Assembly: GCF_009914755.1 (NCBI RefSeq)
Contig: NC_060926.1
Length of the DNA: 64,000 nucleotides
DNA from: the human T2T-CHM13v2.0 reference genome, Homo sapiens
Reading direction: 5' to 3' (one strand)
Part shown: positions 246 through 64,000 of the stretch, in pieces
How positions within the stretch are numbered: position 1 is the stretch's first letter
How the letters are laid out: every line of letters starts with the position of its first letter
Position numbers and translations under genes: made by a program
Notes under the pieces: generated by a model
Databases searched by the model: none
What the model saw: the letters and a program-made list of their open reading frames with translations, nothing else
What the model was told of the DNA's origin: nothing

Positions 246-355
246 CTTAGAGAATGTGTCATCCATATTATACTGGACAACTTCCAATAAAAAACCTGCC
301 ACATTTTCTAGGAAATAGGCTTGTCTGTTTCTTAATTTCAAGAGGCACATATAAC
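246..355 (-). pseudogene. S28 peptidase pseudogene copy B, exon 'L(C)..AYFLE..VVQYN'
   Basis: Minus strand: acceptor ttttctttcctacag|G, then LYVPLEIKK-(1-nt frameshift)-RQAYFLENVAGFLLEVVQYNMDDTFSK; donor degenerate (ataag for gtaag). VVQYN is an S28 motif. Phase fits the exon at 18661-18797 (AA|G = Lys). Confidence 0.8.
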
Positions 356-18660: not shown

Positions 18661-18797
18661 TTGAAATTGACTGTGAGCTTTGCAAAGCCTTCTGGATATT
18701 TCAGCCTCTCCACAATGATATCTGAGGTATCTTTCACTACTTTTGGACATTTGTTGGTTATGAGTGGCCAGAGACCTTTGAACTACTTGGAGGTATC
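18661..18797 (-). pseudogene. S28 peptidase pseudogene copy B, exon 'YLQVVQRSL..C..NF'
   Basis: Acceptor tttatagtctcag|GA and donor AA|gtaagt are intact; YLQVVQRSLATHN-(+1 frameshift)-NKCPKVVKDTSDIIVERLKYPEGFAKLTVNF resembles PRSS16 EYNDVVSRSL...C. Confidence 0.85.
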
Positions 18798-19782: not shown

Positions 19783-20008
19783 CATACATGTCAACTTTTG
19801 TATGGAGTGATGATTGCTGTCCAAGGCTGCAGGAAATAGGTGGGAATTTTTATCCTCAACCACTCTGCAAGGGATCCTGCATAAGAACCACCAACATGAC
19901 CCACATATGGTGGTGAGCTCCACATCCTCGCTATTGCCACTTGGAAGGGGACAGCATCTGCCAAGGCTACCTGTGCTGAGGCAGTAAAGGCGGGCATGCT
20001 CAGATCGC
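19783..20008 (-). pseudogene. S28 peptidase pseudogene copy B, catalytic-Ser exon
   Basis: Across frameshifts: GDLSM..LYCLS..ALADAVPFQVAIA..ELTT..WVM-GGSYAGSLAEWLRIK-NSHLFPAALDS..KVDMY, compared with PRSS16 ALADV...WICFGGSYAGSLAAWARLKFPHL. Ser codon at 19884-19886. Inferred acceptor (cgg) and donor (ttgagt) are both mutated. Confidence 0.9.
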
Positions 20009-26872: not shown

Positions 26873-28035
26873 TAGGTAATGTCAAATTTGTTTTGCCAAA
26901 CAAATTGATTTTTCTAAAACAAAACTGTTTGTTTCATGACCAGCATAACTCATAGAAAACCCTATCGCGATTTCAAAGCTAGATCAATGAATAAAGACTT
27001 GTAAATAGATCAGTGGTGGGGTGGTGAGCCACAGGACAATTTTGAAGGCTCCATGCTCGTGGCTAAGTCAAATTTACAGACACATCATTTAACAGTCAGT
27101 GGTAAGAAATTTCATTCTTTATTGACTCCTCTCAAAAAAGATTAAAGCGATTCGAGCCTAACCTAAATTAAAAACTTCTCAAAAGCCTCTGCTTCCATTC
27201 CCCTGCGCTCCTGCTTGGAAATCTTGTATAAGACAAATCCTAGACTCTCTTCTACAACCCAAACACGAGGGCTTCTTCTCCTTCTGCTCCCAGCCTTTTA
27301 TTATGTAAATCAGCTTAGCCTCTTCCGCATTGGTCTCAAAAGGGTCAGGAAAAAGGAGCCAGGCCAATGAAGAATTTCCATTAGCATTCGGGGGAAAAGG
27401 GGGATGTGCAGAACATTCAGAAGTTAATCCTCTTTTCCCCCTCCCTAAACAACTGATTGAAGGATAATGAAATCAAGAAATTAAGTCTGGCAAGAGTTTT
27501 CAACCTCATGAAGATGATCTGTATGGCAAACTGCTTTAATTTCACTCAACATAAGTTATCCCATATTTGAAAATTATTTTGTTTCCTTAGAGAGATTAAG
27601 AAAACCCAGATTTAAAACTATTTATAGGATATCAATTATTGTTAACACCCACACACAAACCTAAGTTTCAAATGAAGAAATGTAGCCATGATGACATTAC
27701 TAGAATGTCACCTCCCCATCAAAAGTTAAATGACTTAGAATCCAAAATCACATTTGTGGAGTCACAGCTAGAAAGAGGTTGGTGGAATTTTAAGTAATTA
27801 TTGGACTGTCATGATAAACAGTACCAAGAATTATGACTCATATAATAAAGGTATCACTTCACTGACACTAATCACATTCTCAGGGTTGTAAAAAGCAATC
27901 CTTACTTCTTACTTAAATGGGAATAAAAGACTTTGACATTACATTGGATTTTTCATAACCTTCAGGGGTACTTTTTAAACTTCATTTGATTTGCTTGACT
28001 TTATGGAATGAACAGTTTATAAACAAGAAAACAAG

Positions 28036-28945
28036 CTTTTCGATACACCATCTGCAGTGGAACCACCATCAAAATGCAGATTTTTACAAAAACTCTTACA
28101 GAGAAGACCATCACCCTGGAGGTTGAAACTTCAGATACAATAGAAAATGTAAAGGCCAAGATCCAGGATAAGGAAGGAAATCTGCCTGGTTAGCAAAGAC
28201 TTATCTTTGCTGGTAAGCAACTGGAAGATGGATGGTATGGTTTGGCTCTGTGTCCCCACCCAAATCTCATCTTGAATTGTAGCTCCCATAATTCCCATTT
28301 GCTGTAGGAGGGACCTGGTGGGAGATAACTGAATCATGGGGGTGTTTTCCCTCATACTGTGCTCATGGTAGTGAGTAAGTCTCATGAGATCTGATGGTTT
28401 TATAAGGGGTTTCCACTTTCGTTTGGCTCTCATTCTCTCTTGCCTGCCACCATGTAAGATGTGCCTTTCACCTTCCACCATGATTGTGAGGCCTCCCCAG
28501 CCATGTGGAACTGTGAGTTCATTACACCTCTTTTTCTTTACAAATTACCCAGTCTTGGGTATATCTTTATCAGCAGCATGAAAACACACTAATAAAAATG
28601 GGCATCCTTTGTCTAACTACAACATTCACAAGGAGTCTACTCTTTGTCTCATGCTGAGACTTTGTAGTGGCTCTAAGAAAAGGAAGAAGTCTTACACCCC
28701 TCCCAAAAACAATAAGAAGGTGAAGCTGACTGTCCTGAAATACTATAGGATGGATGACAATGGCAAAATTAGTAGCCTCCGTCAGGAGTGTCCTTCAGAT
28801 GAATGTGGTCCTAGAGTTTTTATGGCCAGCCACTTTGACACATTATTGTGGCACAGGGTGTCTGACTTATCGCTTCAACAAACCAGAAGACAAGTGATTG
28901 TGTATGAGTTAATAAAAAACATGAACTAACAACAATAACAAAAAG
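28036..28945 (+). pseudogene. RPS27A: Ubiquitin-ribosomal protein S27a processed pseudogene, interrupted by THE1 LTR
   Basis: 5'UTR cttttcgat..., ATG at 28074 ([35 protein letters not shown]), in-frame TAG; resumes at 28603 ([12 protein letters not shown]...KKRKKSYT...ECPSDECG...NKPEDK*, TGA 28895-28897); intronless, AATAAA at 28911, A-rich tail, TSD-like aagaaaac(t)aag. Confidence 0.97.
28233..28597 (+). mobile_element. THE1 (MaLR) solo LTR
   Basis: tggtatggtttggctctgtgtccccacccaaatctcatc...cagcagcatgaaaacacactaata; 5-bp TSD atgga/atggg inside the ubiquitin codons. Confidence 0.92.
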
Positions 28946-29645: not shown

Positions 29646-29776
29646 TACCTACAGTTTTTCTTTGTGATAGTTGGAATTTTCAAATATTCAGCTTTCTGAA
29701 AGAGAGGTATATTAAGAATTAAAAGTGCATGAAAAAGAGACAGAGAGAGTATAGCAACAGCAACAAGAACGGTCAC

Positions 29777-30189
29777 TGTCAGGCCTCTGAGCCCAAGCTA
29801 AGCCATCATATCCCCTGTGACCTGCACGTACACATCCAGATGGCTGGTTCCTGCCTTAACTGATGACATTCCACCACAAAAGAAGTGAAAATGGCCTGTT
29901 CCTGCCTTAACTGATGACATTGTCTTGTGAAATTCCTTTTCCTGGCTCATCCTGGCTCAAAAGCTCCCCCACTGAGAACATTGTGACCTCCACTTTGCCC
30001 GCCGGAGGACAACCCCCCTTTGACTGTAATTTTCCTTTACTTACCCAAATCCTATAAAATGGCCCCACCCCTATCTCCCTTCACTGACTCTCTTTTCGGA
30101 CTCAGCCCACCTGCACCCAGGTGAAATAAACAGCTTTATTGCTCACACAAAGCCTGTTTGGTGGTCTCTTCACACAGACACGCATGAAA
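29777..30189 (+). mobile_element. HERV-H 5' LTR (LTR7)
   Basis: tgtcaggcctctgagcccaagc...catgaaa; two copies of ttcctgccttaactgatgacatt, TATA cctataaaa, GT-box ccccacccc, AATAAA. Confidence 0.97.
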
Positions 30190-30191
30190 TT

Positions 30192-30209
30192 TGGTGCTGT
30201 GACTCGGAT
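30192..30209 (+). promoter_or_regulatory. Primer binding site, tRNA-His
   Basis: TGGTGCTGTGACTCGGAT versus the tRNA-His complement TGGTGCCGTGACTCGGAT (1 mismatch). Confidence 0.95.
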
Positions 30210-30789
30210 CGGGGGACCACCCTTGGGAGATCAATCCCCTGTCCTCCTGTTCTTTGTTCCAAGAGAAAGATCCACCTACGACCTTGGTCCTCAGACCGAC
30301 CAGCCCAAGAAACATCTCACCAATTTCAAATCCAGTAAGCGGCCTCTTTTTACTCTCTTCTCCAACCTCCCTCACTATCCCTCAACTTCTTTCTCCTTTC
30401 AATCTTGGCACCACACTTCAATCTCTCCTTTCTTTTAATTTCAATTCCTTTCATTTTCTGGTAGAGACAAAGGAGACACGTTTTATCTGTGGACCCAAAA
30501 CTCCGGCACCAGTCACGGACTGAGAAGGCAGCCTTCCCTTGGTGTTTAATCATTGCAGGGACACCTCTCTGATTATTCACCCAGGTTTCAGAGGTGTCAG
30601 ACCACGCAGGGACGCCTGCCTTGGTCCTTCACCCTTAATGGCAAGTCCCGCTTTTCTGGGGGAGGGTCAAGTACCCCAACCCCTTCTCTCCATGTCTCTA
30701 CCTCTTCTCCGCCTTTCTGGGGGGCAAGAAACCCCCAACCCCTTCTCCTTCACCCTTAGCAGCAAGTCTCACTTTTCTAGGGGAGGGGC

Positions 30790-31000
30790 AAGTACCCCAA
30801 CCTCATATCTCTGTGCCCCATCCCTTCTTTCCGCACCCCGAACCCTTATATCTCTGCACCCTAATCCCTTATTTCCCTTCCCCAACCTCTTATATCTCTG
30901 TGCCCTGATCCCTTATTTCTGTACCCCAACCTCTTATATCTCTGTGCCCCAATCCCTTATTTCCACGCCCCAACCTCATATCTCTGTGCCCCGACCCCTT
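30790..31000 (+). repeat. HERV-H leader tandem repeat (~34 bp unit, ~6 copies)
   Basis: Repeated ccccaacctc(t)atatctctgtgcccc...cccttatttc units. Confidence 0.8.
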
Positions 31001-31948
31001 TCCCACTTTTCTGGAGGGTAAAAACCCCCAAACCCCTTCCCTCTGTGTCTCTACCCTCTCTTTTCTCTGGGCTTGCCTCCTTCACTATGGGCAACCTTCC
31101 ACCCTCCATTCCTCCTTCTTCTCCCTTAGCCTGTGTTCTTAAGAACTTAAAACCTCTTCAACTCTCACCTGACCAAAATCTAAGCATCTTATTTTCTTCT
31201 GCAATGCCGCTTGACCCCAATACAAACTCTACAGTAGTTCCAAATAGCCAGAAAATGGCACTTTCAATTTTTCCATCCTGCAAGATCTAAATAATTCTTG
31301 TCGTAAAATAGGCAAACAGTCTGAGGAGCCTGACGTCCAGGCATTCTTTTACACATCGGTCCCTTCCTAGTCTCTGTGCCCAATGCAACTCGTCCCAAAT
31401 CTTCCTTCTTTCCCTCCTGCCTGTCCCCTCAGTCCCAACCCCAAGAGTCACTGAGTCTTTCTAATCTTCCTTTTCTACAGACTTATCTGACCTCTCCCCT
31501 CCTGGCCAGGCTGAGCTAGGTCCCAATTCTTCCTTAGCCTCCGCTCCTGCACCCTATAATCATTTTATCACCTCCCCTCCTAACACCTGGTCTGGCTTAC
31601 AGTTTCGTTCCATGTCTAGCCCTCCCCCACCTGCCCAGCAATTTACTCTTAAAAGGGTGGCTGAAGCTAAAGGCATAGTCAAGGTTAATGCTCCTTTTTC
31701 TTTATCCCAAGTCAGATAGCGTTTAGGCTCTTTTTCACCAAATATAAAAATCCAGCCAAATTCATGACTCCTTTGGCAGCAACCCTGAGATGATGCTTTA
31801 CAGCCCTAGACCCTAAAAGGTCAAAAGGGCGTCTTATCCTCAAAATACATTTTATTACCCAATCTGCTCCCGACATTAAATAAAACTCCAAAAATTAAAT
31901 TCCGGCCCTCAAACCCCACAACAGGATTTAATTAACCTCGCTTTCAAG

Positions 31949-32281
31949 GTGTACAATAATAGAAAAAAGTTGCAATTCCTTGCCTCCACTGTGAGACAAA
32001 CCCCAGCCACATCTCCAGCACATGAGAACTTCCAAACGCCTGAACTGCAGTGGCCAGGTATTCCTCCAGAACCTCCTCCCCCAGGAGCTTGCTACAAGTG
32101 CCAGAAATCTGGCCACCAGGCCAAGGAATGCCTGCAGCCCAGGAGTTCTCCTAAGCCGCGTCCCATCTGTGCGGGACCCCACTGGAAATCGGACTGTCCA
32201 ACTCACCTGGCAGCCACTCCCAGAGCCCCTGGAACTCTGGCCCAAGGCTCTCTGACTCCTTCCAAGATCTTCTTGGCTTAG
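31949..32281 (+). pseudogene. gag: HERV-H gag nucleocapsid remnant
   Basis: Zinc knuckle CYKCQKSGHQAKEC; second knuckle degenerate (RPICAGPHWKSDC). Confidence 0.9.
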
Positions 32282-32339
32282 CAGCTGAAGACTGACGCTG
32301 CCCGATCACCTCGGAAGCCCCCTAGACCGTCACGGACGC

Positions 32340-32640
32340 CGAGCTTCAGGTAACTCTTACAGTGGAAGGTAAGTCCGTCCCCTTCTTAGTCAATACGGAG
32401 GCTACCCACTCCACATTACCTTCTTTTCAAGGGCCTGTTTCCCTTGCCTCCATAACTGTTGTGGGTATTGACAGCCAGGCTTCTAAACCTCTTAAAACTC
32501 CCCAACTCTGGTGCCAACTTAGACAATACTCTTTTAAGCACTCCTTTTAATTATCCCCACCTGCCCAGTTCCCTTATTAGGCCGAAACACTTTAACTAAA
32601 TTATCTGCTTCCCTGACTATTCCTGGATTACAGCTACATC
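32340..32640 (+). pseudogene. pro: HERV-H protease remnant
   Basis: VEGKSVPFLVNTEATHSTL (catalytic DTG changed to NTE), ITVVGID; frameshift before IPTCPVPLL. Confidence 0.85.
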
Positions 32641-32643
32641 TCA

Positions 32644-34470
32644 TTGCTGCCCTTCTTCCCAATCCAAAGCCTCCTTTGTGTTCTCCTCTTGTATTCCCCC
32701 ACCTTAACCCTCAAGTATATCTCTACTCCCTCCTTGGCGACCGATCATGCACCCCTTACCATCTCATTAAAACCTAATCACCCTTACCCTGCTCAATGCC
32801 AATATCCCATCCCACAGCATGCTTTGAAAGGATTAAAGCCTGCTATCACTCGCCTGCTACAGCATGGCCTTTTAAAGCCTATAAACTCTCCTTACAATTC
32901 CCCCATTTTACCTGTCCTAGAACCAGAGAAGATTTACAGGTTAGTTCAGGATCTGCGCCTTATCAACCAAATTGTTTTGCCTATCCACCCCGTGGTGCCA
33001 AACCCATATACTCTCCTATCCTCAATACCTCCCTCCACAATCCATTATTCTGTTCTGGATCTCAAACGTGCTTTCTTTACTATTCCTTTGTACCCTTCAT
33101 CCCAGCCTCTCTTCGCTTTCACTTGGACTGACCCTGACACCCTTCAGGCTCAGCAAATTACCTGGGCTGTACTGCCGCAAAGCTTCACAGACAGCCCCCA
33201 TTACTTCAGTCAAGCCCAAATTTCTTCCTTATCTGTTACCTATCTCAGCATAATTCTCATAAAAACACACACGCTCTCCCTGCTGATCATGTCCGATTAA
33301 TCTCCCAAACCTCAATCCCTTACAAAACAACAACTCCTTTCCTTCCTAGGCATGGTTAGTGCGGTCAGAATTCTTACACAAGAGCCAGGACCACACCCTG
33401 TAGCCTTTCTGTCCAAACAACTTGACCTTACTGTTTTAGCCTAGCTCTCATGTCTCCATGCAGCGGCTGCTGCCGCCCTAATACTTTTAGAGGCCCTCAA
33501 AATCACAAACTATGCTCAACTTACTCTCTACATTTCTCATGACTTCCAAAATCTGTTTTCTTCCTCATACCTGAAGCATACACTTTCTGTGCCCTGGCTC
33601 CTTCAGCTGTACTCACTCTTTGTTAAGTCCCACAATTACCACTGTTCCTGGCCCGGACTTCAATCCGGCCTCCCACATTATTCCTGATACCACACCTGAC
33701 CCCCATGACTGTATCTCTCTGATCCACCTGACATTCACCCCATTACCCCATATTTCCTTCTTTCCTGTTCCTCACCCTGATCATGCTTGATTTATTGATG
33801 GCGGTTCCACCAGGCCTAATCGCCACACACCAGCAAAGGCAGGCTATGCTATAGTACAAGCCACTAGCCTGCCTCTTAGAACCTCTCATTTCCTTTCCAT
33901 CGTGGAAATCTATCCTCAAGGAAATAACTTCTCAGTGTTCCATCTGCTATTCTACTACTGCTCAGGGATTATTCAGGCCCCCTCTCTTCCCTACACATCA
34001 AGCTCGAGGATTTGCCCCCACCCAGGACTGGCAAATGAGCTTTACTCAACATGCCCCGAGTCAGATAACTAAAATACCTCTTAATCTAGGTAGACACTTT
34101 CACTGGATAGGTACAGCCCTTTCCTACAGAGTCTAAGAGGCCACCGCAGTCATTTCTTCCCTTCTGTCAGACACAATTCCTCAGTTTAGCCTTCCCACCT
34201 CTATACAGTCTGATAACAGACCAGCCTTTATTAGTCAAATCAGCCAAGCAGTTTTTCAGGCTCTTAGTATTCAGTGAAATCTTTATATCCCTTATGGTCC
34301 TCCATCTTCAGGAAAAGTAGAACGGACTAAAGGTCTTTTAAAAACACACCTCACCAAGCTCAGCCACCAACTTAAAAAGGACTGGACAATACTTTTACCA
34401 CTTTTGCTTCTCAGCATTCAGGCCTGTCCTCAGAATGCTACAAGGTACAGCCCATTTGAGCTCCTTTTTA
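32644..34470 (+). pseudogene. pol: HERV-H pol remnant (partial RT, RNaseH start, integrase)
   Basis: SPYNSPILPV, YRLVQDLRLIN, VLDLKRAFF, FAFTWTDP, WAVLPQSF; YxDD region deleted; later FIDGGS and IQSDNRPAF motifs with stops. Confidence 0.9.
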
Positions 34471-35083
34471 TTAGGCCCCAGTCTCATTCCAGACACCAGA
34501 CCAACTTAGACTGTGCCCCAAAAAACTTGTCATCCCTACTATCTTCTGTCTAGTCATACTCCTATTCACCGTTCTCAACTACTCATACATACCCTGCTCT
34601 TGTTTACCCTGCCAGTTTACACTGTTTCTCCAAGCCATCACAGCTGGTATCTCCTCGTGCTATCCCTAAACTGCCACTCTTAACTCTTAAAGTAAATAAA
34701 TAATCTTTACTGGCAAGGCTATGCTGAGCCTCCTTAGGCACTCTCTAATTAGATGTCCTAGGTCCTCCCAATTCTTAGTCCTTTAATACCTGTTTTTCTC
34801 CTTATCTTATTCCGTTTAGTTTTTCAATTCATACAAAACTGTATCCAGGCCATCACCAATAATTCTAAATGACAAATGTTCCTTCTAACAACCCCACAAT
34901 ATCACCCCTTACCACAAAATCTTCCTTCAGCTTAATCTCTCCCACTCTAGGTTCCCATGCCACCCCTAATCCCGCTCAAAGTAGCCCTGAGAAACATCGC
35001 CCATTATCTCTCCATACCATCCCCCAAAATTTTCACTGTCCCAACACTTTACCACTATTTCATTTTATTTTTCTTATTAATAT

Positions 35084-35096
35084 AAGAAGACAGGAA
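35084..35096 (+). promoter_or_regulatory. Polypurine tract
   Basis: aagaagacaggaa immediately before the 3' LTR. Confidence 0.85.
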
Positions 35097-35509
35097 TGTC
35101 AGGCCTCTGAGCCCAAGCTAAGCCATCATATCCCCTGTGACCTGCACATACACATCCAGATGGCCGGTTCCTGCCTTAACTGATGATATTCCACCACAAA
35201 AGAAGTGAAAATGGCCTGTTCCTGCCTTAACTGATGACATTGTCTTGTGAAATTCCTTCTCCTGGCTCATCCTGGCTCAAAAGCTCCCCCACTGAGTACC
35301 TTGCGACCCCCACTCTGCCAGCCAGAGAACAACCCCCCTTTGACTGTAATTTTCCTTTACCTACCCAAATCCTATAAAATGGCCCCACCCCTATCTCCCT
35401 TTGCTGACTCTCTTTTCGGACTCAGCCCACCTGCACCCACGTGAAACAAACAGCTTTATTGCTCACACAAAGCCTGTTTGGTGGTCTCTTCACACGGATG
35501 CACATGAAA
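35097..35509 (+). mobile_element. HERV-H 3' LTR (LTR7)
   Basis: Colinear with the 5' LTR, about 21 substitutions in 413 bp by manual count; AATAAA changed to AACAAA. Confidence 0.97.
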
Positions 35510-35676
35510 GTCATGAAAAGAAAAGCCTTCAGGTTACCCTGCTGGTTGGCTGTGCCCTTTAATTCTGTGTTCTGGAAGTAAGCAGAAGGCCTCGAGTTCT
35601 CTGGGTATAAGTAACGCAGGGGACAGTCAGGACATTGAGTTTCTACTGGCAACTGTCACCCTTCAATCATTAGAAA

Positions 35677-35931
<255 letters not shown>

Positions 35932-36607
35932 TCACTGTTAATGAAATATCTCTGTAGAAAGAAAAACATGCTTTTAGGTCATTAATTTGCCATGCCCTGA
36001 GATTTGTTTGTGATTTGTGATAACTGGGTGGCAGCATAATTTGGTTTGTCAGAGCAAAGATTTGGATGAAGCAGGTTCACTGTGCACTGATGACCAATGT
36101 GTCTGAGTCCAGCGAGGTGGAACACCCAACGTACAAGTTACATGAAGCAGGTCTTTACTTACAGGTAGACAATTAGGGATAGCAGAAGGCTAGGAGTCAT
36201 TCTGAGCTGGCCCCTCAAACTCAGGAAAGCTGCTCATTTGTGTCGCCTCATTTGCACAGCAGCTCAGGAACTGTGAAAGTTGCATACTTCCGAGCCCGTG
36301 TCCTGCTGGGCTAAAGGGCTGAAGGCCATCCTGTCTCTAAGGGAGAGACGAACAGAGCTCAGGCTGTCCTGGCCTGTTCCTTCCCTATCTCAGAATGTTA
36401 CATTCCCTGCATATTCTACAGTTATTCTCGAGAACTTCAAGTAAGAAAGTGGGGAGAACCGGGTCAGTCCAAAGCCACCTGGAGAAATGTCCTTAGATTA
36501 TGGGTCCTGAGAGCCCCCTAAATCAATGACACTGCACAAGCTACTATGCGTATACATTGGGCACATTTATTTTTTGCTTTTTAATTTAAAAATTTTCCAA
36601 CAGATAC

Positions 36608-53613: not shown

Positions 53614-54706
53614 TCAATGTCTTTTAAAAAGTAACATTTGATCTGAACCTGCAGTGACATCTAATCTGAAGCCAGCCTGAAAGAGTGTGGGGAGGAATAT
53701 TTCAGATGGAAGGAACAAAGCCCCGAGGTGGAAAAAGCCTGATTAGCAGTGGTTTACCAGTGCTTTACCAGTGATTTGTGCAGAAATAGTTTTTAAAATA
53801 ATGACCATAACCCATGATATCAACTGAAGGAATGTCTCCTCTCTTTTGACCTTAAAGTAGGAACTATCAATGTTTAATCCACTAAGTTACAGGCTTGACC
53901 AACTGCTGATGGATATTACCATTTGCCATTGGAGAATATTGATGAGCTGTTGAACATTAGCTGTGACCTCCATTTACTACCATGAGTTGATACTAAGTGC
54001 CTCTTTATTACCTCCAGCTTTCCCTAAAATACCATTTAGAATAAATGTGCTCATTCAACAAATCTTGCTTAAGCACCTCTTATGCTCAAAGGCTCGGTAG
54101 GAGAAACATTGAGGAATAAAACCTCCAGATTCTTTGGAATCTAACCTAGCAGTGGGAAAAAGGCACTTAACCTTGAGATGTGATAAATACTAAGAGAGGT
54201 ACTGAATTAGTGCAGTGGGAGTCTAGCTGGGATAGAATCCCTTTTAGCTGAGGTTTAGTGGAGGGAGGGTCTGTGAGCTGAGCCAAGAATCAATGTTTTT
54301 TTTATGTCAAGGTATCAGTTAATATTAGCCTTAAAACAATCATATAAATACTTAAAAACTCAGCATCTTGTGTATCACAAGTTTTACAAATTTTTTCTTA
54401 GCTAATTAGAAGCTTATCAAAGCACTTTTTAAAATTAGATTCCAACTATGCTCATTTATTTTACCAAACTTCTCTATGAATCAGTTTGCAGAGTACGTGA
54501 GACTAAAACAGAAGTCATCAAGATGATTAGCATTTTTTAAGTTTCTAGTTCTCTGAAACAATGCAATTTAAAACTCTCAAGGTGACTAAATCATAATCTT
54601 TATAAAGTCTTATTCTTACATTATGCTTAAAGATTCCTAGATTTAGACCTCAACATACTTTATAGAATACCTAATTCCATCCTTACATTTAGAAATAATA
54701 AAACCT

Positions 54707-55092
54707 GGCTGAGCTCAGTGGCTCACGCCTGTAATCCCAACATTTTGAGAGGCTAAGGTGGGCAGATCACTTGAGGTCAGGAGTTCGAGAACAGCCTGGC
54801 CAACATGGTGAAACCCCGTCTCTACCATAAATACAAAAATTAGGTGAGCTTAGTGGTGCGTGCCTGTAATTCAGCTACCCAGAAGGCTGAGGCATGAGAA
54901 TAGCTTGAACCTGGGAGGCGGAGGTTGCAGTGAGCCAAGATTGTGCCATTGCACTCCAGCCTGGGCAACAGAGCGAGACTTTGTCTCAAAAAAAAGCAAG
55001 CAAGCAAGAGAAAGAAGAGAGAAAGAGAGAGTGTGAGAGAGAGAGAGAAAAGAAGGAAGGAAGGAAGGAAGGAAGGGAGGGAAAGGAAAGGA
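54707..55092 (+). mobile_element. Alu with expanded (GA)/(GGAA)n tail
   Basis: Alu body to ~54988, then a GA-rich microsatellite tail. Confidence 0.93.
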
Positions 55093-56294
55093 ACTGGGCT
55101 CCAAAGAGTCAATTAGCTTAAATAAAGTTATATTCTTCCCTTTCACTGTCCTTCTAATATTTTTTTTCTCAGAATATCTGTTGGCATGTAATAAATTAGA
55201 TAGGTTTGTAAGCAGTCCTGTTGTCAGTTGTTGGCAATAAGGTGAAAGACATAGAAATTGATGTCTGGAAGGCACATCTGGAGGAGAAAAGACCCTGGTT
55301 ACGATGCTTCTGTGAGCAGAGGCCCATACTTACGAGGAACCTGTGGCAGAATAATGGTCCCTTCAAAGATTCCTGCAACCTGTGAATATATCAGGTTACA
55401 TGGCAAAAGACAATTAAGGCTGAAAATGGAATTAAGGATCCTGACTTATCTGAGAGGAGATTTTATCTTGGAAGGAAAGTCGGGTAAGCCCTCCCTGAAC
55501 AAGAGATGTTTGAGGTGGGATCTCAAAGGTGAATGGGAGATAATGAGGTCACAAAAACCAAGAGAAACCATCCAGGTGGTAAAAATGGCATAGGCAAAAG
55601 TCCTGAGGCCAGCAAAGCATGAAGAATGTGAGGGACTGAAGAAGACAGTGTGGCTGGAAGGGAGAAACGGAGAAAAGTTGGTCTAAAACGAGGGTAGAGA
55701 AGCTGGTAATGGGATGACTTACTCAGAGCCCTGGAAACCGGATGAACCAAGTCCATCTTCACCTTGAAAGCAATGGCAAGCCATTGAATGACTCTCGCAG
55801 CTCAAATGGAGGTTAAAAGCAATTCATTTTCAGGATAAAAATGTACTTGGACAAAATGCATCTTTAAGGAAAGCTGCAGAGTAATCCAATAATGTGCTTA
55901 TGCATTTTGTTTCAGAAGGCTTTCTCTTGAATCTTGAATTTTGAATAAATATGACTAACAATGACAGAATTGCTCTCTGTAGAAAAATATGTGCTATAAA
56001 AATCCAACTTAAAAAATTTTTAATTCATGGAATTTTGCTAACCGAGTCTATTTTCAGAACGAAAATAAACTAGTCTGGACAGAATTTTAATGAAATGTTC
56101 CCATTAGTATTATTGTGAGTAGATGACAGACTCCAAGTTCCAAGAGGATTAGGAACCAATGTTTCCTAGGGATTCTAGTATGCTTTACAAGTTCCTTTCT
56201 GACTGGCTGATGTAGGCACGGGACGTTGATGGCAAAATTCCCCGGTATAAAAAATTCATAAGGAGACACCTGGGCCCAGAAAGTTTTCCTAACG

Positions 56295-56296
<2 letters not shown>

Positions 56297-56333
<37 letters not shown>
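56297..56333. repeat. (CA)n microsatellite
   Basis: About 18 AC units. Confidence 0.95.
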
Positions 56334-56335
<2 letters not shown>

Positions 56336-56702
56336 TGGCTTACAAAATGATTTAATCAAATCACATATGTGCATTTCATAAATGGGCTTTTTTGAAAACA
56401 ACAAGATTACATGAAATTGACATAGTTCTAGGAAATCCAGTCTGTTTCTGTAGCAACCAATAATTAGCATGCACATGATCCTCTAGTACAATTAATTTCT
56501 AAGTGTTGGAATGGTTTGATGCTTCTAAACATCACAAAGGAAGAACTTGATTTAAAAAACTATTTAAAATATAAAACACACACACACCATTTAAATCTAA
56601 AAGTACTGTCCTTCCATCTCCTTTAACTTCATCCTTGCTGAGGTTTTGTGTTTTGGTGAGAAAATGGAGGGCAGACTTTGCATTCCATTGAGCTTTCCTT
56701 TC

Positions 56703-56824
56703 TCATCGATCACTTGGGTTAGTTAGCCACTTTTGCAGAAACTCAAAAGATTTTTTCTCGTCACAAGTTAGTTCAGCTGAATCGGTAGTTTGGGCTGGAT
56801 ACAAATTTGCACAGTGAGCTTCAC
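56703..56824 (-). pseudogene. S28 peptidase pseudogene copy A, terminal exon (catalytic His)
   Basis: Acceptor ccttttcacattttag|GT; (G)EAHCANLYPAQTTDSAELT-fs-REKIF-fs-EFLQKWLTNPSDR*; compare PRSS16 GSHCLDM...DSPSL...RQNIFQQLQTWL. His codon at 56814-56816. Confidence 0.92.
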
Positions 56825-57873
56825 CTAAAATGTGAAAAGGAAAGGTCAGAATACCTCTACAGCAAGTATTCTTAACTCTGGTTGCACATCAACACATCTG
56901 GGGAGCTTTTAAAAATACCTATGTCCAGGACAATTCCCAGAAATTCTCAATTAATCGGTCCAATATTTATTTAAAACACGTATTGCTTGTTATCAATTAT
57001 CAAGTGATACAAATGAATGAACACTACAGGAAATTGCCTAATCTTGTCAATTTAGAGATTCATGTTTTTAATAATCTCATCCTTCAACTCAAAAGTATGA
57101 CATAAATTAAGCTCCCAGGATATGAGTTTATTCCCTGGAAGTTACAAATAGAAAGTTAACAGCTACTAAAATAAGAACAAAAGCACGATTTATAGTTTTG
57201 TAGAACTTTAAGCTACGTTTAATAAATATTTTTGTTTCCTTTCTTTTTCAGGTTAAAGAAAACAAAACAAAACTGAAGCTCAGATAGTTTACGTGACTTG
57301 TAAAGTCACGTGTTGATGAAGCCAGGTCACTGGGACATGTATTTTACCTGTCCTGACTTAACAGTGATCTAGAAATACATATGGAAGCCTCCTCCATGCA
57401 CATATACCTGACTTTTCTTTGATTTCCAAGGATTTGGGAGGACTTTGGGCTTGAAATCGAGGTGATAGCTTTGCAAATACATTAACATAATAAACTGAAG
57501 ATTTTCATTTTGCAAGTGGCATAACACGTGAACATCTCAATACTAAAAATGGATTATTTTGAATTATTTTAAAGCTTACTTCAATAATTTCCAACAAAGA
57601 AAACTTAATTTTCAGTCACAGGTTCCTTGCATCTCTCATGAATTTATTGCACTAAAAACTAGGTAGATACATCATTGGGTACATCATTTGCCTTCAAATC
57701 AAATTTATGTAGACAAAATAGCTCAATTTAACGAGTAACAAGAGTCCTGAAAGAATGTGACCTTACGTCACATTATCTGAAACTGCGTAAACCACTTATC
57801 GAAAAACCTTTAAGCCCAACAGTTGACAAAGTCGTTCATTTTGTATCCCTACAAATACTAACAACTGTGTTAC

Positions 57874-58083
57874 CCTCAATGTAAACAGCAGGCAAATCTT
57901 TACTGATATCTTTTATGACTCCCAAAGCATGCCAAGGGTCAATGAAACCTTTGGCAAAGACAGTTTTGCTTCCTGTCACATTCAGGCCACCGTAGAACTA
58001 AGTGTGGCCTGAACAGCCTAAGCCACTGAAACATTATTGAAGTCAGGGCCCAAGATATCTGAACATTGCTGAAGAAAAAAAAT
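57874..58083 (-). pseudogene. S28 peptidase pseudogene copy A, catalytic-Asp exon
   Basis: Acceptor poly(T)gcag|, donor G|gtaac; LQQCSDILGPDFNNVSVA*AVQATL-fs-FYGGLNVTGSKTVFAKGFIDPWHALGVIKDISKDLPAVYIE(G); stop at 58018-58020; Asp codon at 57938-57940. Confidence 0.95.
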
Positions 58084-58249
58084 CTGCAAAAAAAAAAAAA
58101 TTATAGTTTTGATCAAGCAGGAATGAGGAGTTCAAGAAGGGTATAAAGAGAAAGATGGTGGAGATTAATTTTTGTGCTTTGTTTTCTTCTGATAATCTGG
58201 ATTTACTGGAATTACTAAAGAAACTTCTGTAACTAAAAAAAAAAGTTAT

Positions 58250-58490
58250 TGGATGGGTACAGTGGTTCATGCTTGTAATGTCAGTGCTCTGAGAAGCTGA
58301 GGTGGGGGGGATCTCTTGAGGCCAGGAGTTCGAGACCAGCCTGGGCCACATAGCGAGATCATATCTACAAAAAATTCTTTAAAAAGAAAAAATTAGCCAG
58401 GTGTGGTTGTGCGTTTGAGGTTACAGTGAGTTATGATCATGCCACTGCAATTCAGCCTAAGCAACAGAGCAAGAACCTGCCTCTCTAAAA
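58250..58490 (+). mobile_element. Alu (AluJ-like) with internal deletion in the right arm
   Basis: gtggttgtgcgt joined directly to tgaggttacagtgag. Confidence 0.85.
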
Positions 58491-60188
58491 GATAATAATA
58501 AGAATAAATTATTGAAAACCCAATGATCTCAGGTTCATTATTTCTCATGGAGACATCTCTTCCACATGCTAAATTATTAGTTTCTTGCCAAACACCTAAA
58601 GATACTGTGATACAGCAAGGTAGCTTTTCATTTGACCCATGCATATATTTCCATGAGAATGTTTATAAACATGATATTCTTTCTTACTCAGATGAAAGCA
58701 TGTGCTGAGATCCTATTCTCTAAACCTTAACTTCCTATGTACATAAGAAATGCTGGCTTCATACTTAGAGAAAAGTATGCATTTCTTAATCAAAGAACTC
58801 ATACACAACTCAAGATAAATCCCTAATACTGAATGAGTTCGTATTGGAAAAAGGTAGTACTACTTTCTTTCTAAATTCAGTTGTGATAGTGACCCTCCTT
58901 TAAAAGAAAAAGGGTGAAGAGAGGTAATAATCTTATGCAGTATACCTCTAAGTCAAAAGTGAACTTCTGGCTTCTTTGACTTTTTTTTTTTTTTAAGATA
59001 CAATTAGCCAGAGTTTGGATACAAGAAATGGAAAAAAAGTTAAAAGAAAGCAAGTAAGGTGTAAAAGCAAGATAACAATGGTTAGTTGCAAGAATTTGTC
59101 ATAACAATGAAAAATTGAAGAAAGAGAAAGGAAGGAGGAGAGAAACTTCCCTCCTGAATCCTGGGCTGGAGCTGGATGGGCAGTGAATCCAAACAAAACA
59201 AAAGGAGAAAAAGAGGCCTGGGCTCCTCACACCCAGCAGCCCAGAATGAAGAGACACACAGAGGTGCTGGCCCCTGTCCAGGCTCTTCATGCCTCCACCG
59301 AGGCACCACTCCAAAACAGGTGGCCTGGTGTGGATCTTTTGCCTTTCTAAACCAGGGCTGCATTCCTCCTCACTGGGGAGCTGAGAGGGTTGTGGAGCCA
59401 GAAAAGACAAACTATGTGCTTCACTTGGACATTTGGTAATTTTGTGTTATTTTATCCTCAAAATTTGAGAGAGAGACAGACATAAAAAATGGAGGTACAT
59501 GTGCACCACACACACACACAGAAAATCCTTCTGCTCCTCATATCAAAAAGAAAGAAAGAAAAAAGGAAAGGTAAGAGGAGGAAATAGGAAATCATTCTCC
59601 ATGTCTAGCAACCTCAATTTATAATGTGAACTTCCAAGAGCAGGGGTTATCCTTGGCTGAACCAAACCAATAAATAAGAACAAAAAAACACTAACAGATG
59701 AAGTGCAAGTTGGAGGCCTGGTGTCATTTCTCCAGCAAATCTTGCCTAATCTATAAAGGTAAAATATATAGATATCTTGCATTCTTTGATAAGAATGTGT
59801 ATTTTACTTACGTCTTTGGTGTAGCTTATGATCCTAATTTGGATTTTTTTAAATCAACACATCAAATATTTTGGGGAAACAAGTTTTAAATGAAGTATCT
59901 CAGTAATGCCAGCCGTTAGGACAGAGAATGCTAGTGTATACCCTCTCTTGTGTCACAGAGAGCCATTAATGTTTCTGATTCTCTGGAGTTTGATATCAAA
60001 ATAGAGTGAGTTAGAGAAACTGAATTTTAATTTTGTATTGTGACTTCTCAAACTTCCATCTGGAAAATTTCTCCATTAATTTTTCATTGATTTAGGCATG
60101 GCCAATCTGATGAATATAATTATTCCTTTAAACATAGAAACAATTTGCAGTTGTGGATTCTAGTGGCAAACAGAACTCAAATTCTTAC

Positions 60189-60274
60189 AGGGAATCCAGA
60201 GAAGGGCTGGTTCTTCGAACTCGTGCTCTGCTAGAAGCCAAATTCAGTGCAAGTCTGATAAAACCATTGCCTGG
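60189..60274 (-). pseudogene. S28 peptidase pseudogene copy A, 'RQW.YQTCTEFG' exon
   Basis: Acceptor ttttgctttctag|CC; RQWFYQTCTEFGF*QSTSSKNQPFSGFP then gtaaga; PRSS16 has RQWLYQTCTEFGFY; nonsense TAG at 60231-60233. Confidence 0.95.
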
Positions 60275-60719
60275 CTAGAAAGCAAAACGTCAATTATCTT
60301 AAGAATGATACTATTTCGCTGGTGACCAGAAAAAGACCTAAAAACTTTAAAGGATTCCATTTTACAACACTGTCACACCCTAGAAGAACAATTTGGATCT
60401 CCATTTTCCTCGACATTTTTTAGTCATGTCCATACATAACCACAGCAAGGTGCTGAAACTGTATCCTGTGATCGGGCATGCTATCATGGCGCCCACATGC
60501 TCTTGAAGGAGCCCCTTCCCTTCCTCTCAGCACCTGGGGTCTGTCCACTCCCCTTCCTCTATTCCCAATCTTTCTAGGTCATGCTCCACGCCCTCTGCAT
60601 CCCTCCCTAGCTGACTTCCCCTCAAGATCTCCATTGTTTCACAGCAAAGTTTCTTTCTTGAATGAGTGATGCACACTTGATCCATTTGTTCATCCCCTTC
60701 TCCATACCTCAGTCACACT

Positions 60720-62430
60720 GTGACAGGATGCCGTCCTCCCCAGGTGTCCAGGACCTCTCAAGTGCAACAAAGAAACTTTACACCCGCCTCCTGCTTCTAT
60801 AGCTGACCTTACCCCCCAAGCACATCTTCTGAGCTTTGCGCTTGGCTTCTGGGACACCTCCCTCTCAGATTCCCTCCTGCCTTGCCCAGGCTCAGCTCCT
60901 TCTTCTGCCCATTGTTTACATCTTGGTGTTCTCTTCATCCTCCTCTCTCTAGGACCCAAATCCTAGCTGCTAACTCCCAAATCGCTCCTCTAGCCCAGCC
61001 TCTCTCTCGCTTGCACACCATACCCTCCAGACACCTTCACTGGAGCCTCAAAAACTAGATGCTTAAAACAGAGCCAAATATCACCCTTACCAGACTCCTT
61101 ACTCAGACATCTTCTCCACTTGTACATCCTCTCTTCCATCCACCTGGGCCAGAAAAAAAATGAACTCCATCTTGAGGTCCTTCTTATCTCTCACCTCCTT
61201 ACATAGATGGTTCACTGAGTCCTGCCAATATTATTTGCCAGCGTTCTTGTCTCCGCAGTCACTGCCCTTGTCAAATGCTGGGTCCTCATCGTTTCATAGG
61301 TCAACTGTCACGAAGGACTCTCAACTGCATTCCCTGCCTCGTTATCTCTTGTCCCGTCCACCCTGCAAGCCCTTGGGAAAATATTTCTAAACCTCATACA
61401 TGCTCTTCCCCTCCCTCCCCTCTTATTGATTTGTATGGACTATATGATCAAGTTCAGGCTTCTTAATGGGATGTAAAACTCTTTCTGATCTGGCCCCGCC
61501 CACTGGTCCAACCTCATGTCTTGCCACCACACCACCACCTCCCACACTCCCATTTCTCAAGCTGTACCCCACTTCTGTGGTCTAGACCCAGGTTTGCTCC
61601 ACATCTGTGTGCCTTTTCTACTTCTACTCCTGCCTACATAAAAAAACATGCTTTGTCTTCTGATTTGAAAACTTCTGCCCATCCTGCCGCCTGAACTCAG
61701 AGGTTACTGCTTCTGAATTTTTCCCTTACCCTTTCTTCATACTGTCTTCCTGTTTCATTTCCAGATCTTCTCCGACCTTCTTGCACATGTTCCTATGAAA
61801 GTACCCATCCTCAGCATCTAACACAGTGCCTGGCTGGAAACTAAACCCAGGAATTAGAATTATGAGTAACCATCTGGAAATGTCATTCATGTAAAGTCTA
61901 GCAGTCATGTCAAGAACCTGGGCATCATCCTAAGAGTTTGTAGCTCTTAGCAGATAGGGAAATAATATAATAAAAAGCGACCCAGAGTGCCTGGAAGGGG
62001 GGTGAGGGACAGTTTACAATTTTAGATGGAGAGAACAGGGTGGGTGCCACTGAGAAGGCAGTTTGAGCAAAGATTCTAAGGAGACGAGGGAGTGGAGAAG
62101 ATGACGTCCTGGAATGTTGCAGAGCCAGTGTGGCTGTCCCAGAGCAAGCAGGGTGAGGGGAGTAGGAATGGTGTCAGACTGGATGGGATTCTGCATGGCA
62201 CTGTAAGGACAATGGCTTTTCCTCTAAGAGAAATGGCCATCATTGCACCATTTTGAGCAAAGGATTCAATTTGTTCATTAGGGATCACTACAGCTGCTGA
62301 ATTAGAATAAGTGTAGGGGCCAGCACAGAGATGCAGAAACAGGTTAGGAAGCTGTTCTAATAATCCAGCGGAGAGGAGGTGGCAGCCAGGGAAGCAGAGC
62401 CAGAGGAGTTGGATTCTGGAGAAATCTAGG
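60720..62430. mobile_element. L2-like fragments (both orientations)
   Basis: Pyrimidine-rich L2-type text such as ttggcttctgggacacc, cagcatctaacacagtgcctggc and, reversed, gagcaaaggat...gttaggaagctgtt; boundaries rough. Confidence 0.55.
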
Positions 62431-63169
62431 CCCAAAAACTTAAAAACAGTCTTGGAAATAGACTTGGAATTTTTCCAAGTACATATTCTGGAGTCATAAT
62501 CTCAAGAAAATTTCTAGCACTGACCTACCCAAGACATTTGGAAGATTTGCTGTGTGTCAAGTATAACAGGAAGACTAAAGTTTCTCTTATTTTCCTGTCA
62601 ATCTCATTCTCCATAATTATCTTTTTATATTTACATATGGACATTTGATAGGGAAGTGCAATCAGACTATTATAATGCAGTTCTTAAGACTATTTCCCCT
62701 CCTACAGGTGGAGTTTTGCACATATATACCTGAACTATGCCTGTATTACACATAATTACACCTGCAGGTGTATCTAACTTCTTGAAAATATGAGTTATGG
62801 ACAAATCAATGCATCAGTAATCAGATACTGAAAGTTAATTTTAATAGGCAATGCTTTTCCCAAGGCTATCAATCCTTCCATAACTCCATCAACATTTGTG
62901 AGCCCTTATTCGCACCAAGCATTATCCAAAACACTAGAGAAACAAAAATGAACAAGCCACAGTCGTCTTTGGCTTCAAATCGCTGACAGTCTAGTAGAAG
63001 AGGCAAACATACAGCACAGCTTTAACTTCACCCTCTCTAAGACATCTTGCACTTAAGCCTACTCCTTCTGCAAACTGGCAGCAGTTGTAGCCCTCACACT
63101 CTGGCTGAACACCCTCTCGGGTTCTGCCTACAGCACCCCTGGAAGCAAATTTAAAACTTGCTAACAGAG

Positions 63170-63463
<294 letters not shown>

Positions 63464-64000
63464 TTAAGCTTGCTAGCAAGAGGCACTATCCACACCTTTG
63501 CTGCAGCATTTTAGGCAAAGGACTCTTCTAGTCTATTTGGGCTCTAGTTCACCCCTGGGGGTCCCTGGGCAAAAATAAAAAATAAAAATGAAAAAAGCAC
63601 AGAAGAAAGCATAAATACCTCCTCCTAGGGAGATGTTAAATTCGGATAAATACTAACCCTCAGGCATGGGGCCAGGGCATTGGTGCTGTTCAAAAGCTCT
63701 TTGGGTGATTCTCAGGTCCAGCCAAGGATGAGGAACCCCACAAGGAACTGCAGGTAGAGCACTTTCTTGCTACTGACAGCTCTTCTTTCAGGTGGTTAAA
63801 AGATAACAGCATGCTTCTGAAAAGCACTGTGGAGTATCTTTCTTGATTCTGCTCTTTAAACTATGGGCGTGTGAGAATTGCCCTCTTTCCCATGTAAAGA
63901 GAGTTGTTTGTGATGTCCAGCACCCCCTTACTACTTGTTCAAGGACATTTAGTTCCTAGTTCCTTGGTAATTCCTCCCTGTGCTGAATTCAATTTTTGTA

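What the first reader, a model, noticed from the sequence alone, without database searches (positions are those of the whole stretch)
56703..60274. Copy A 3' half is well preserved, with canonical splice dinucleotides and catalytic Asp/His
Three consecutive exons keep AG acceptors, GT donors, the DPWH and HC motifs and a stop codon. Visible lesions are two TAG codons (60231-60233, 58018-58020) and a few small indels. Copy B has three mutated splice sites and more frameshifts. Inference: copy A was inactivated later than copy B and may still be spliced as a non-coding transcript.
Basis: partly seen in the sequence, partly recalled or inferred. Interest (0 to 1): 0.7.

Follow-up and report, generated by a model that had tools for sequence, protein, structure and literature searches.

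The report
Lost fourth S28 peptidase gene pair
These three exons are the tail end of a broken human gene for a protein-cutting enzyme that is predicted to be intact in mouse lemur, with relatives in colugo, elephants, platypus and fish; it likely died later than its broken twin next door, and nothing found here shows that it is still spliced.

Summary
Window 60274-56703 (minus strand) holds exons 7-9 of a nine-exon, intron-containing pseudogene of an S28 serine peptidase (copy A, extending to 87868), absent from the RefSeq table. It groups with a predicted intact mouse-lemur protein (74% identity, support 100). Tandem copy B (35951 to about -25960) groups with colugo and afrotherian proteins. 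Both belong to a vertebrate S28 lineage distinct from PRSS16 (AU p=0.0001); no intact human copy was found. 'A died later than B' is supported: 12 of 115 versus 25 of 104 conserved residues changed (p=0.011), and about 9 versus 18-27 frameshifts. Over the whole genes A lost 4 of 16 splice sites and B 5 of 15; both keep Ser, Asp and His; five intact dinucleotides are expected by chance about 56% of the time. The three exons carry seven frame lesions. A has also lost its ATG and part of exon 6. No evidence for splicing was found, and RNA-seq could not be searched. Verdict: an apparently undescribed unitary pseudogene pair, not a preserved lncRNA.

The parts
60189..60274 (-). Copy A exon 7 (QWFYQTCTEFGF); TAG at 60233-60231; about 5 coding nt lost at the donor
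57874..58083 (-). Copy A exon 8; catalytic Asp codon at 57940; TAG 58020-58018; +2 nt in the opening T-run; -1 nt at about 57999; conserved I>T (57964) and N>K (57952)
56703..56824 (-). Copy A exon 9, coding part; catalytic His codon at 56816; compensating -1/+1 indels at 56762 and 56748; TGA 56705-56703
60275..64000 (-). Copy A intron 6, running out of the window. Beyond the window, in the same coordinates: exon 6 remnant 64218-64095 (acceptor and first ~75 nt replaced by a repeat fragment), exon 5 69359-69246 (acceptor and donor lost, -1 nt), exon 4 74663-74530 (acceptor lost, -2 nt), exon 3 76136-75904 (catalytic Ser at 76009, TGA at 76069), exon 2 81230-81046 (-1/+1 pair), exon 1 87868-87692 (start reads GTG, third codon TGA)
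35538..35951 (-). Copy B exon 2, split by an Alu-type repeat (about 35677-35930), three or more frameshifts
19783..20007 (-). Copy B exon 3; Ser codon at 19886; acceptor GG, donor TT; four or more frameshifts
18661..18797 (-). Copy B exon 4; one frameshift
246..355 (-). Copy B exon 5; donor GT>AT; frameshifted. Exons 6-9 lie left of the window at -8082..-8278, -13408..-13498, -16796..-16984 and -25866..-25962 (exon-6 donor GA, exon-9 acceptor AA; Asp and His codons kept)

Best explanation
The three exons are the 3' end of a dead, intron-containing S28 serine-peptidase gene (copy A) that sits head-to-tail with an even more decayed twin (copy B), and A likely stopped working later than B and is likely decaying neutrally, its splice sites and catalytic codons surviving simply because little time has passed. 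Shown: nine-exon anatomy, lost ATG, four stops, about nine frameshifts, part of exon 6 replaced, four of 16 splice sites lost, no intact human copy found. Shown by tree: A pairs with mouse lemur, B with colugo and then afrotherians, and the whole lineage (lamprey to lemur) is separate from PRSS16. Inferred: a single ancestral gene (platypus, amphibians, fish) was duplicated in tandem after the monotreme split and before afrotherians and primates parted; B died near the root of primates and A around the base of monkeys and apes (about 0.05 versus 0.12 substitutions per site; the conversion to branches uses recalled primate branch lengths). Inferred for the living enzyme: a signal-peptide-bearing, lysosomal or secreted alpha/beta-hydrolase exopeptidase using a Ser-Asp-His triad like PRCP and DPP7, probably cutting next to proline; substrate untested.
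For: Pfam S28 over cut-off. Orthologue P0001, 74% over 375 columns, tree support 100. Exon map and lesions; the longest ATG frame in the spliced relic is 92 aa. A and B are colinear in introns at about 58-68% identity, as expected of an old tandem gene duplication. Genome-wide S28 matches fall at only five places: this locus, chr6 (PRSS16), chr9, chr11 and a processed copy on chr2 that is 83-91% identical to chr11 exons. Age contrast; on columns not conditioned on the orthologue, A changed 14 and lemur 3 of 123, B 27 and colugo 0 of 116. Neutral expectation for five intact dinucleotides 0.56 and for three intact catalytic codons 0.65.
Against: No DNA of lemur or other primates was available, so synteny, shared lesions and dN/dS were not tested; orthology rests on protein trees. 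The lemur and colugo proteins are predicted models that begin in exon 2. Divergence intervals of A (0.024-0.096) and B (0.073-0.185) overlap at their ends, and the branch-length ratio alone would allow an older death of A. Intact afrotherian proteins differ at 13-22 of the 130 conserved columns, so the B lineage can drift while working. Only the best 120 of 1323 and 120 of 869 hits were listed, and only annotated proteins are held, so absences in other mammals are not proof of loss. Lesions were read from one assembly.
Confidence: 0.85

Rival explanations
1. The 3' exons of A are still spliced into a non-coding RNA that matters, for example by read-through from FAM124B, whose 3' end lies 24 kb upstream of exon 1 on the same strand.
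For: Five consecutive splice dinucleotides and their pyrimidine tracts are intact; the 60189>58083 junction happens to keep frame; all four lost sites of A lie in exons 4-6; loss relics that became lncRNAs are described (PMC10195156, abstract start and passages).
Against: Chance of five intact sites is 0.56; whole-gene loss rate equals B's (p=0.70). No RefSeq model (hub table), no Rfam match in 54000-64000, no CpG island at exon 1 (observed/expected 0.11-0.48), no AATAAA within 2.2 kb after the stop.
Confidence: 0.06
2. A and B died on the same branch; B only looks older because its lineage evolved fast while still working or the B region mutates faster.
For: Afrotherian B-type proteins deviate at 10-17% of conserved columns while intact; splice-site loss is equal; confidence intervals touch.
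Against: B's sister, the colugo protein, changed 0 of 116 and 1 of 130 such columns; frameshifts cannot accumulate in a working gene and are two to three times denser in B; an A-type protein is predicted intact in lemur whereas no lemur B-type protein was listed.
Confidence: 0.08
3. The locus is a duplicated pseudogene of PRSS16 (or of PRCP/DPP7) and no gene was lost.
For: Databases label many relatives 'thymus-specific serine protease' or 'Serine protease 16'.
Against: Trees put human PRSS16 in a separate clade (100/100) and reject grouping it with this lineage (AU p=0.0001); A is 36% identical to PRSS16 but 74% to lemur; only the first of A's eight intron positions matches a PRSS16 intron seen.
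Confidence: 0.01

Closest known systems
'Putative serine protease K12H4.7' gene models (mouse lemur P0001, colugo P0004, elephants, manatees, dugong, golden mole, platypus, amphibians, fish, lamprey)
   Same: Same lineage, same motifs; A is 74% identical to the lemur protein and B 60% to the colugo protein.
   Different: The human copies are broken; the relatives are predicted proteins with automatic names and no tested function found.
PRSS16 / thymus-specific serine protease (chr6)
   Same: S28 family, Ser-Asp-His motifs, first intron at the same place.
   Different: Separate deep clade; about 35-45% identity; seven of eight intron positions differ. Described as the third S28 member with undeciphered activity (PMC4570136, one passage).
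PRCP and DPP7 (PDB 3n2z, 3jyh)
   Same: The lemur protein aligns over residues 7-421 at E 1e-39 to 1e-35, with triad residues in register.
   Different: Much more distant; substrate of this lineage unknown.
Human unitary pseudogenes (Zhang 2010, Mudge 2019, Wen 2023 lists)
   Same: Intron-containing relic, no working copy in the genome.
   Different: Zhang and Wen anchor on rodent genes (passages), and no rodent member was found, so such screens would be blind to it; not found in the list files searched.

Membership tests
Peptidase family S28 (PF05577) | Profile match over the curated cut-off | tested here: met
   33.7 and 29.4 bits vs 25; 72.2 and 54.3 bits for exons 3 and 2
Peptidase family S28 (PF05577) | Ser-Asp-His triad in that order | tested here: met
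   Codons at 76009, 57940, 56816 in A and 19886, -16916, -25874 in B; columns hold S 140/142, D 142/142, H 142/142; triad defined in PMC2893456 passages
Peptidase family S28 (PF05577) | Alpha/beta hydrolase fold with SKS cap domain | not tested
   No fold was run; only sequence alignment of the lemur protein to DPP7 and PRCP
Peptidase family S28 (PF05577) | Proline-directed exopeptidase activity | not testable with these tools
   Needs an assay of the lemur or fish enzyme
PRSS16 orthologues | Groups with human PRSS16 | tested here: not met
   Separate clades; AU p=0.0001
PRSS16 orthologues | Shared intron positions | tested here: not met
   1 of A's 8 positions matches an intron seen in PRSS16
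Unitary pseudogene | Disabled reading frame | tested here: met
   Start loss, 4 stops, about 9 frameshifts, exon-6 replacement
Unitary pseudogene | Unprocessed (keeps exon-intron structure) | tested here: met
   Nine exons over 31 kb, 12 of 16 splice dinucleotides canonical
Unitary pseudogene | No working counterpart in the same genome | tested here: met
   Two genome-wide searches (28 and 25 candidates scored) found only this locus and four other S28 places; counts are lower bounds
Unitary pseudogene | Syntenic intact orthologue in another species | tested here: inconclusive
   Protein-tree orthologue in lemur; synteny not testable, no vertebrate DNA other than this genome
Unitary pseudogene | Lesions fixed in humans | not testable with these tools
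   One assembly only
Pseudogene-derived lncRNA | Spliced transcript detected | not testable with these tools
   No RNA-seq tool; RefSeq table shows none
Pseudogene-derived lncRNA | Splice sites kept beyond neutral expectation | tested here: not met

The most novel reading that the evidence does not exclude
Vertebrates have a fourth, undescribed S28 peptidase besides PRCP, DPP7 and PRSS16. It is well conserved from lamprey to platypus, was duplicated in early placental mammals, expanded in elephants and sea cows, and was lost many times independently, surviving as copy A only in lemurs and as copy B only in colugo and afrotherians. Humans keep both as unannotated relics with different ages, and many fish proteins labelled 'thymus-specific serine protease/PRSS16' are really this gene.
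Probability: 0.55. Interest if true: 0.6.

Novelty: new member of a known kind. Interest (0 to 1): 0.42.

Why it matters
It adds a lost enzyme to the human gene-loss catalogue that rodent-anchored screens are built to miss, with two staggered losses at one locus that can be dated on primate genomes. It also warns that fish proteins labelled PRSS16 may be the wrong paralogue, which matters for claims about the evolution of thymic antigen processing. The lncRNA idea that prompted the flag is the least supported part.

Tried and rejected
Self-comparison of the window did not find copy B's 3' exons because they lie outside it. Search for copy B exon 1 between 35960 and 56600 with four proteins and with A's exon-1 DNA gave only background scores: deleted or too decayed. 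Search for A's missing exon-6 5' part in 64230-69250 gave background only; the replacing fragment has dispersed 69-87% matches and no close source copy; its likeness to an old L1 3' end is recalled, not tested. A first lesion count missed the -1/+1 pair in exon 9; rerun with three frameshift penalties, the A/B contrast held. No lesion is identical in A and B, so no sign of conversion after death. The first tree, without distant outgroups, left PRSS16 unresolved (support 50) and was replaced. The exon sizes of the lamprey 'PRSS16' probe in PMC12685072 (passage) did not match either human gene by eye, so which paralogue that paper used could not be told. Ten paper searches found no description of the locus. 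No structure prediction, complex prediction or atlas search was run. Earlier scan notes were not available.

Full report
Observation. Exons at 60274-60189 and 58083-57874 each pass the Pfam Peptidase_S28 cut-off. A search with 41 residues of exon 8 returned one protein, mouse lemur 'putative serine protease K12H4.7' (P0001, 88%), which matches the three exons at 71-88%.

Anatomy. Searching the genome with P0001 and fetching 120 kb of flanks showed that the window cuts two genes in half. Copy A runs from 87868 to 56703 in nine exons; copy B from 35951 to about -25960 in eight found exons, with exon 1 not found. The copies are colinear in their introns at about 58-68% identity. A's lesions: start reads GTG in a good Kozak context, TGA at codon 3, a -1/+1 pair in exon 2, TGA in exon 3, -2 in exon 4, -1 in exon 5, acceptor and first ~75 nt of exon 6 replaced by a repeat fragment, TAG and a ~5-nt loss in exon 7, +2, TAG and -1 in exon 8, and a -1/+1 pair in exon 9. 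Joined at the homologous sites, A's longest ATG frame is 92 aa. B has 18 frameshifts under a strict setting and 26-27 under lenient ones, and an Alu-type insert in exon 2.

Is the 3' half specially preserved? No. It has 7 stops and frameshifts in 418 nt against 6 in the other 967 nt. A has lost 4 of 16 splice dinucleotides, B 5 of 15 (p=0.70), and B's own last three exons keep 4 of 5. At A's divergence, five intact dinucleotides are expected 56% of the time and three intact catalytic codons 65%. Both copies keep Ser, Asp and His; the triad was placed by alignment to PRCP and DPP7 and by passages of PMC2893456.

Relative age. At columns at least 90% conserved in 142 proteins and unchanged in lemur and colugo, A changed 15 of 118 and B 30 of 116 (p=0.013). 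With residues beside frameshifts left out, the figures are 12 of 115 and 25 of 104 (p=0.011). These convert to about 0.05 (0.024-0.096 over settings) and 0.12 (0.073-0.185) substitutions per site. As a control for change while working, lemur alone changed 3 of 123 and colugo alone 0 of 116 such columns. An early count of 8 versus 17 frameshifts gave p=0.043. By recalled primate branch lengths (about 0.04 to the ape-Old World monkey ancestor, 0.06 to the simian ancestor, 0.11 to the primate root; no call), A died around the base of monkeys and apes and B near the primate root. The tree branch of A (0.23 against 0.12 for lemur) would allow an earlier date in the haplorhine stem. This dating is inference.

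Family position. IQ-TREE puts A with lemur (100), B with colugo (100), these two with afrotherians (100), and all with platypus (90). With distant unnamed representatives (38 of 150 used, 13), lamprey, shark, bony fish, amphibian and mammalian members form one clade (99-100), and human PRSS16 with seven unnamed proteins forms another (100/100); forcing PRSS16 into the first is rejected (AU p=0.0001, which also flags odd composition in four PRSS16-side rows). All 147 proteins score better against lemur P0001 than against three PRSS16-side proteins (partly circular, as they were found with P0001 and P0004), although many carry the label 'thymus-specific serine protease'. Intron positions differ from PRSS16 at seven of eight places. 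The genome holds no other copy of the lineage among the candidates scored; the chr2:101.98 Mb match is a processed copy of the chr11 gene. Named mammals in the two top-120 lists are lemur, colugo, elephants, manatees, dugong, golden mole and platypus only (one ferret label on a tilapia cluster disregarded). An A or B orthologue in another placental should have ranked near the top, so repeated loss is likely, but 1203 and 749 weaker hits were not shown and only annotated proteins are held.

Mechanism. The relic cannot give the enzyme (shown). The living enzyme is inferred to be a signal-peptide-bearing Ser-Asp-His exopeptidase like PRCP and DPP7; no activity data were found. A non-coding transcript is not supported: no RefSeq row (hub table), no Rfam match, no CpG island at exon 1, no AATAAA in 2.2 kb after the stop. 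RNA-seq was not searchable.

Literature. Ten searches (listings and abstract starts) found no description of this locus. Seen as passages only: PMC7555810 (supplements not searched), PMC2864566 (mouse-anchored; supplements not searched), PMC10195156 (rodent-anchored; supplement searched for names, no hit), PMC6886504 (supplement files S1-S5 and the stored part of S6 searched by name and by GRCh38 coordinate prefixes that rest on a recalled offset, no hit), PMC9004415 (supplements not searched), PMC12685072, PMC1309616, PMC2865498 (PRSS16 absent in two birds), PMC4570136, PMC2893456. GENCODE, HGNC and MEROPS could not be checked, and unsearched supplements could list the locus.

Verdict. The finding is an apparently unannotated pair of unitary pseudogenes of a fourth vertebrate S28 lineage: a new member of a known kind, interest 0.42.

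Noticed in passing
window 29762-35509, + strand: Endogenous retrovirus with two LTRs (29762-30189, 35084-35509) differing at 25 of 426 columns (16 of 406 non-CpG), inserted about 28 nt into copy B intron 2, antisense to B. The primer-site-like sequence after the first LTR looks HERV-H-like (recalled, not tested).
   Followed up: partly
window 35677-35930: Alu-type repeat inside copy B exon 2, with about six codons of the exon missing at its edge; its subfamily would give a minimum age for B's death.
   Followed up: partly
G000:C2:101979633-101980524 (L034): Intronless, broken S28 copy, 83-91% identical to exons of the chr11 gene: a processed pseudogene, likely of PRCP.
   Followed up: partly
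proteins P0070, P0089, P0110, P0116, P0118, P0122-P0125, P0131, P0133, P0144: Afrotherians carry several divergent B-type copies, some elephant ones with GCSY in place of GGSY at the nucleophile: a lineage-specific expansion with fast evolution.
   Followed up: partly
protein P0014: A cluster labelled both tilapia and ferret; the ferret label is likely a mislabelled record and was not counted as a mammal.
   Followed up: no
window 27497-28232: Intron-2 homology between B (28027-27497) and A (80678-80144; 66% over 557 nt) ends right beside the annotated UBA52 pseudogene LOC100289117 (28074-28232), which lies inside B intron 2.
   Followed up: no
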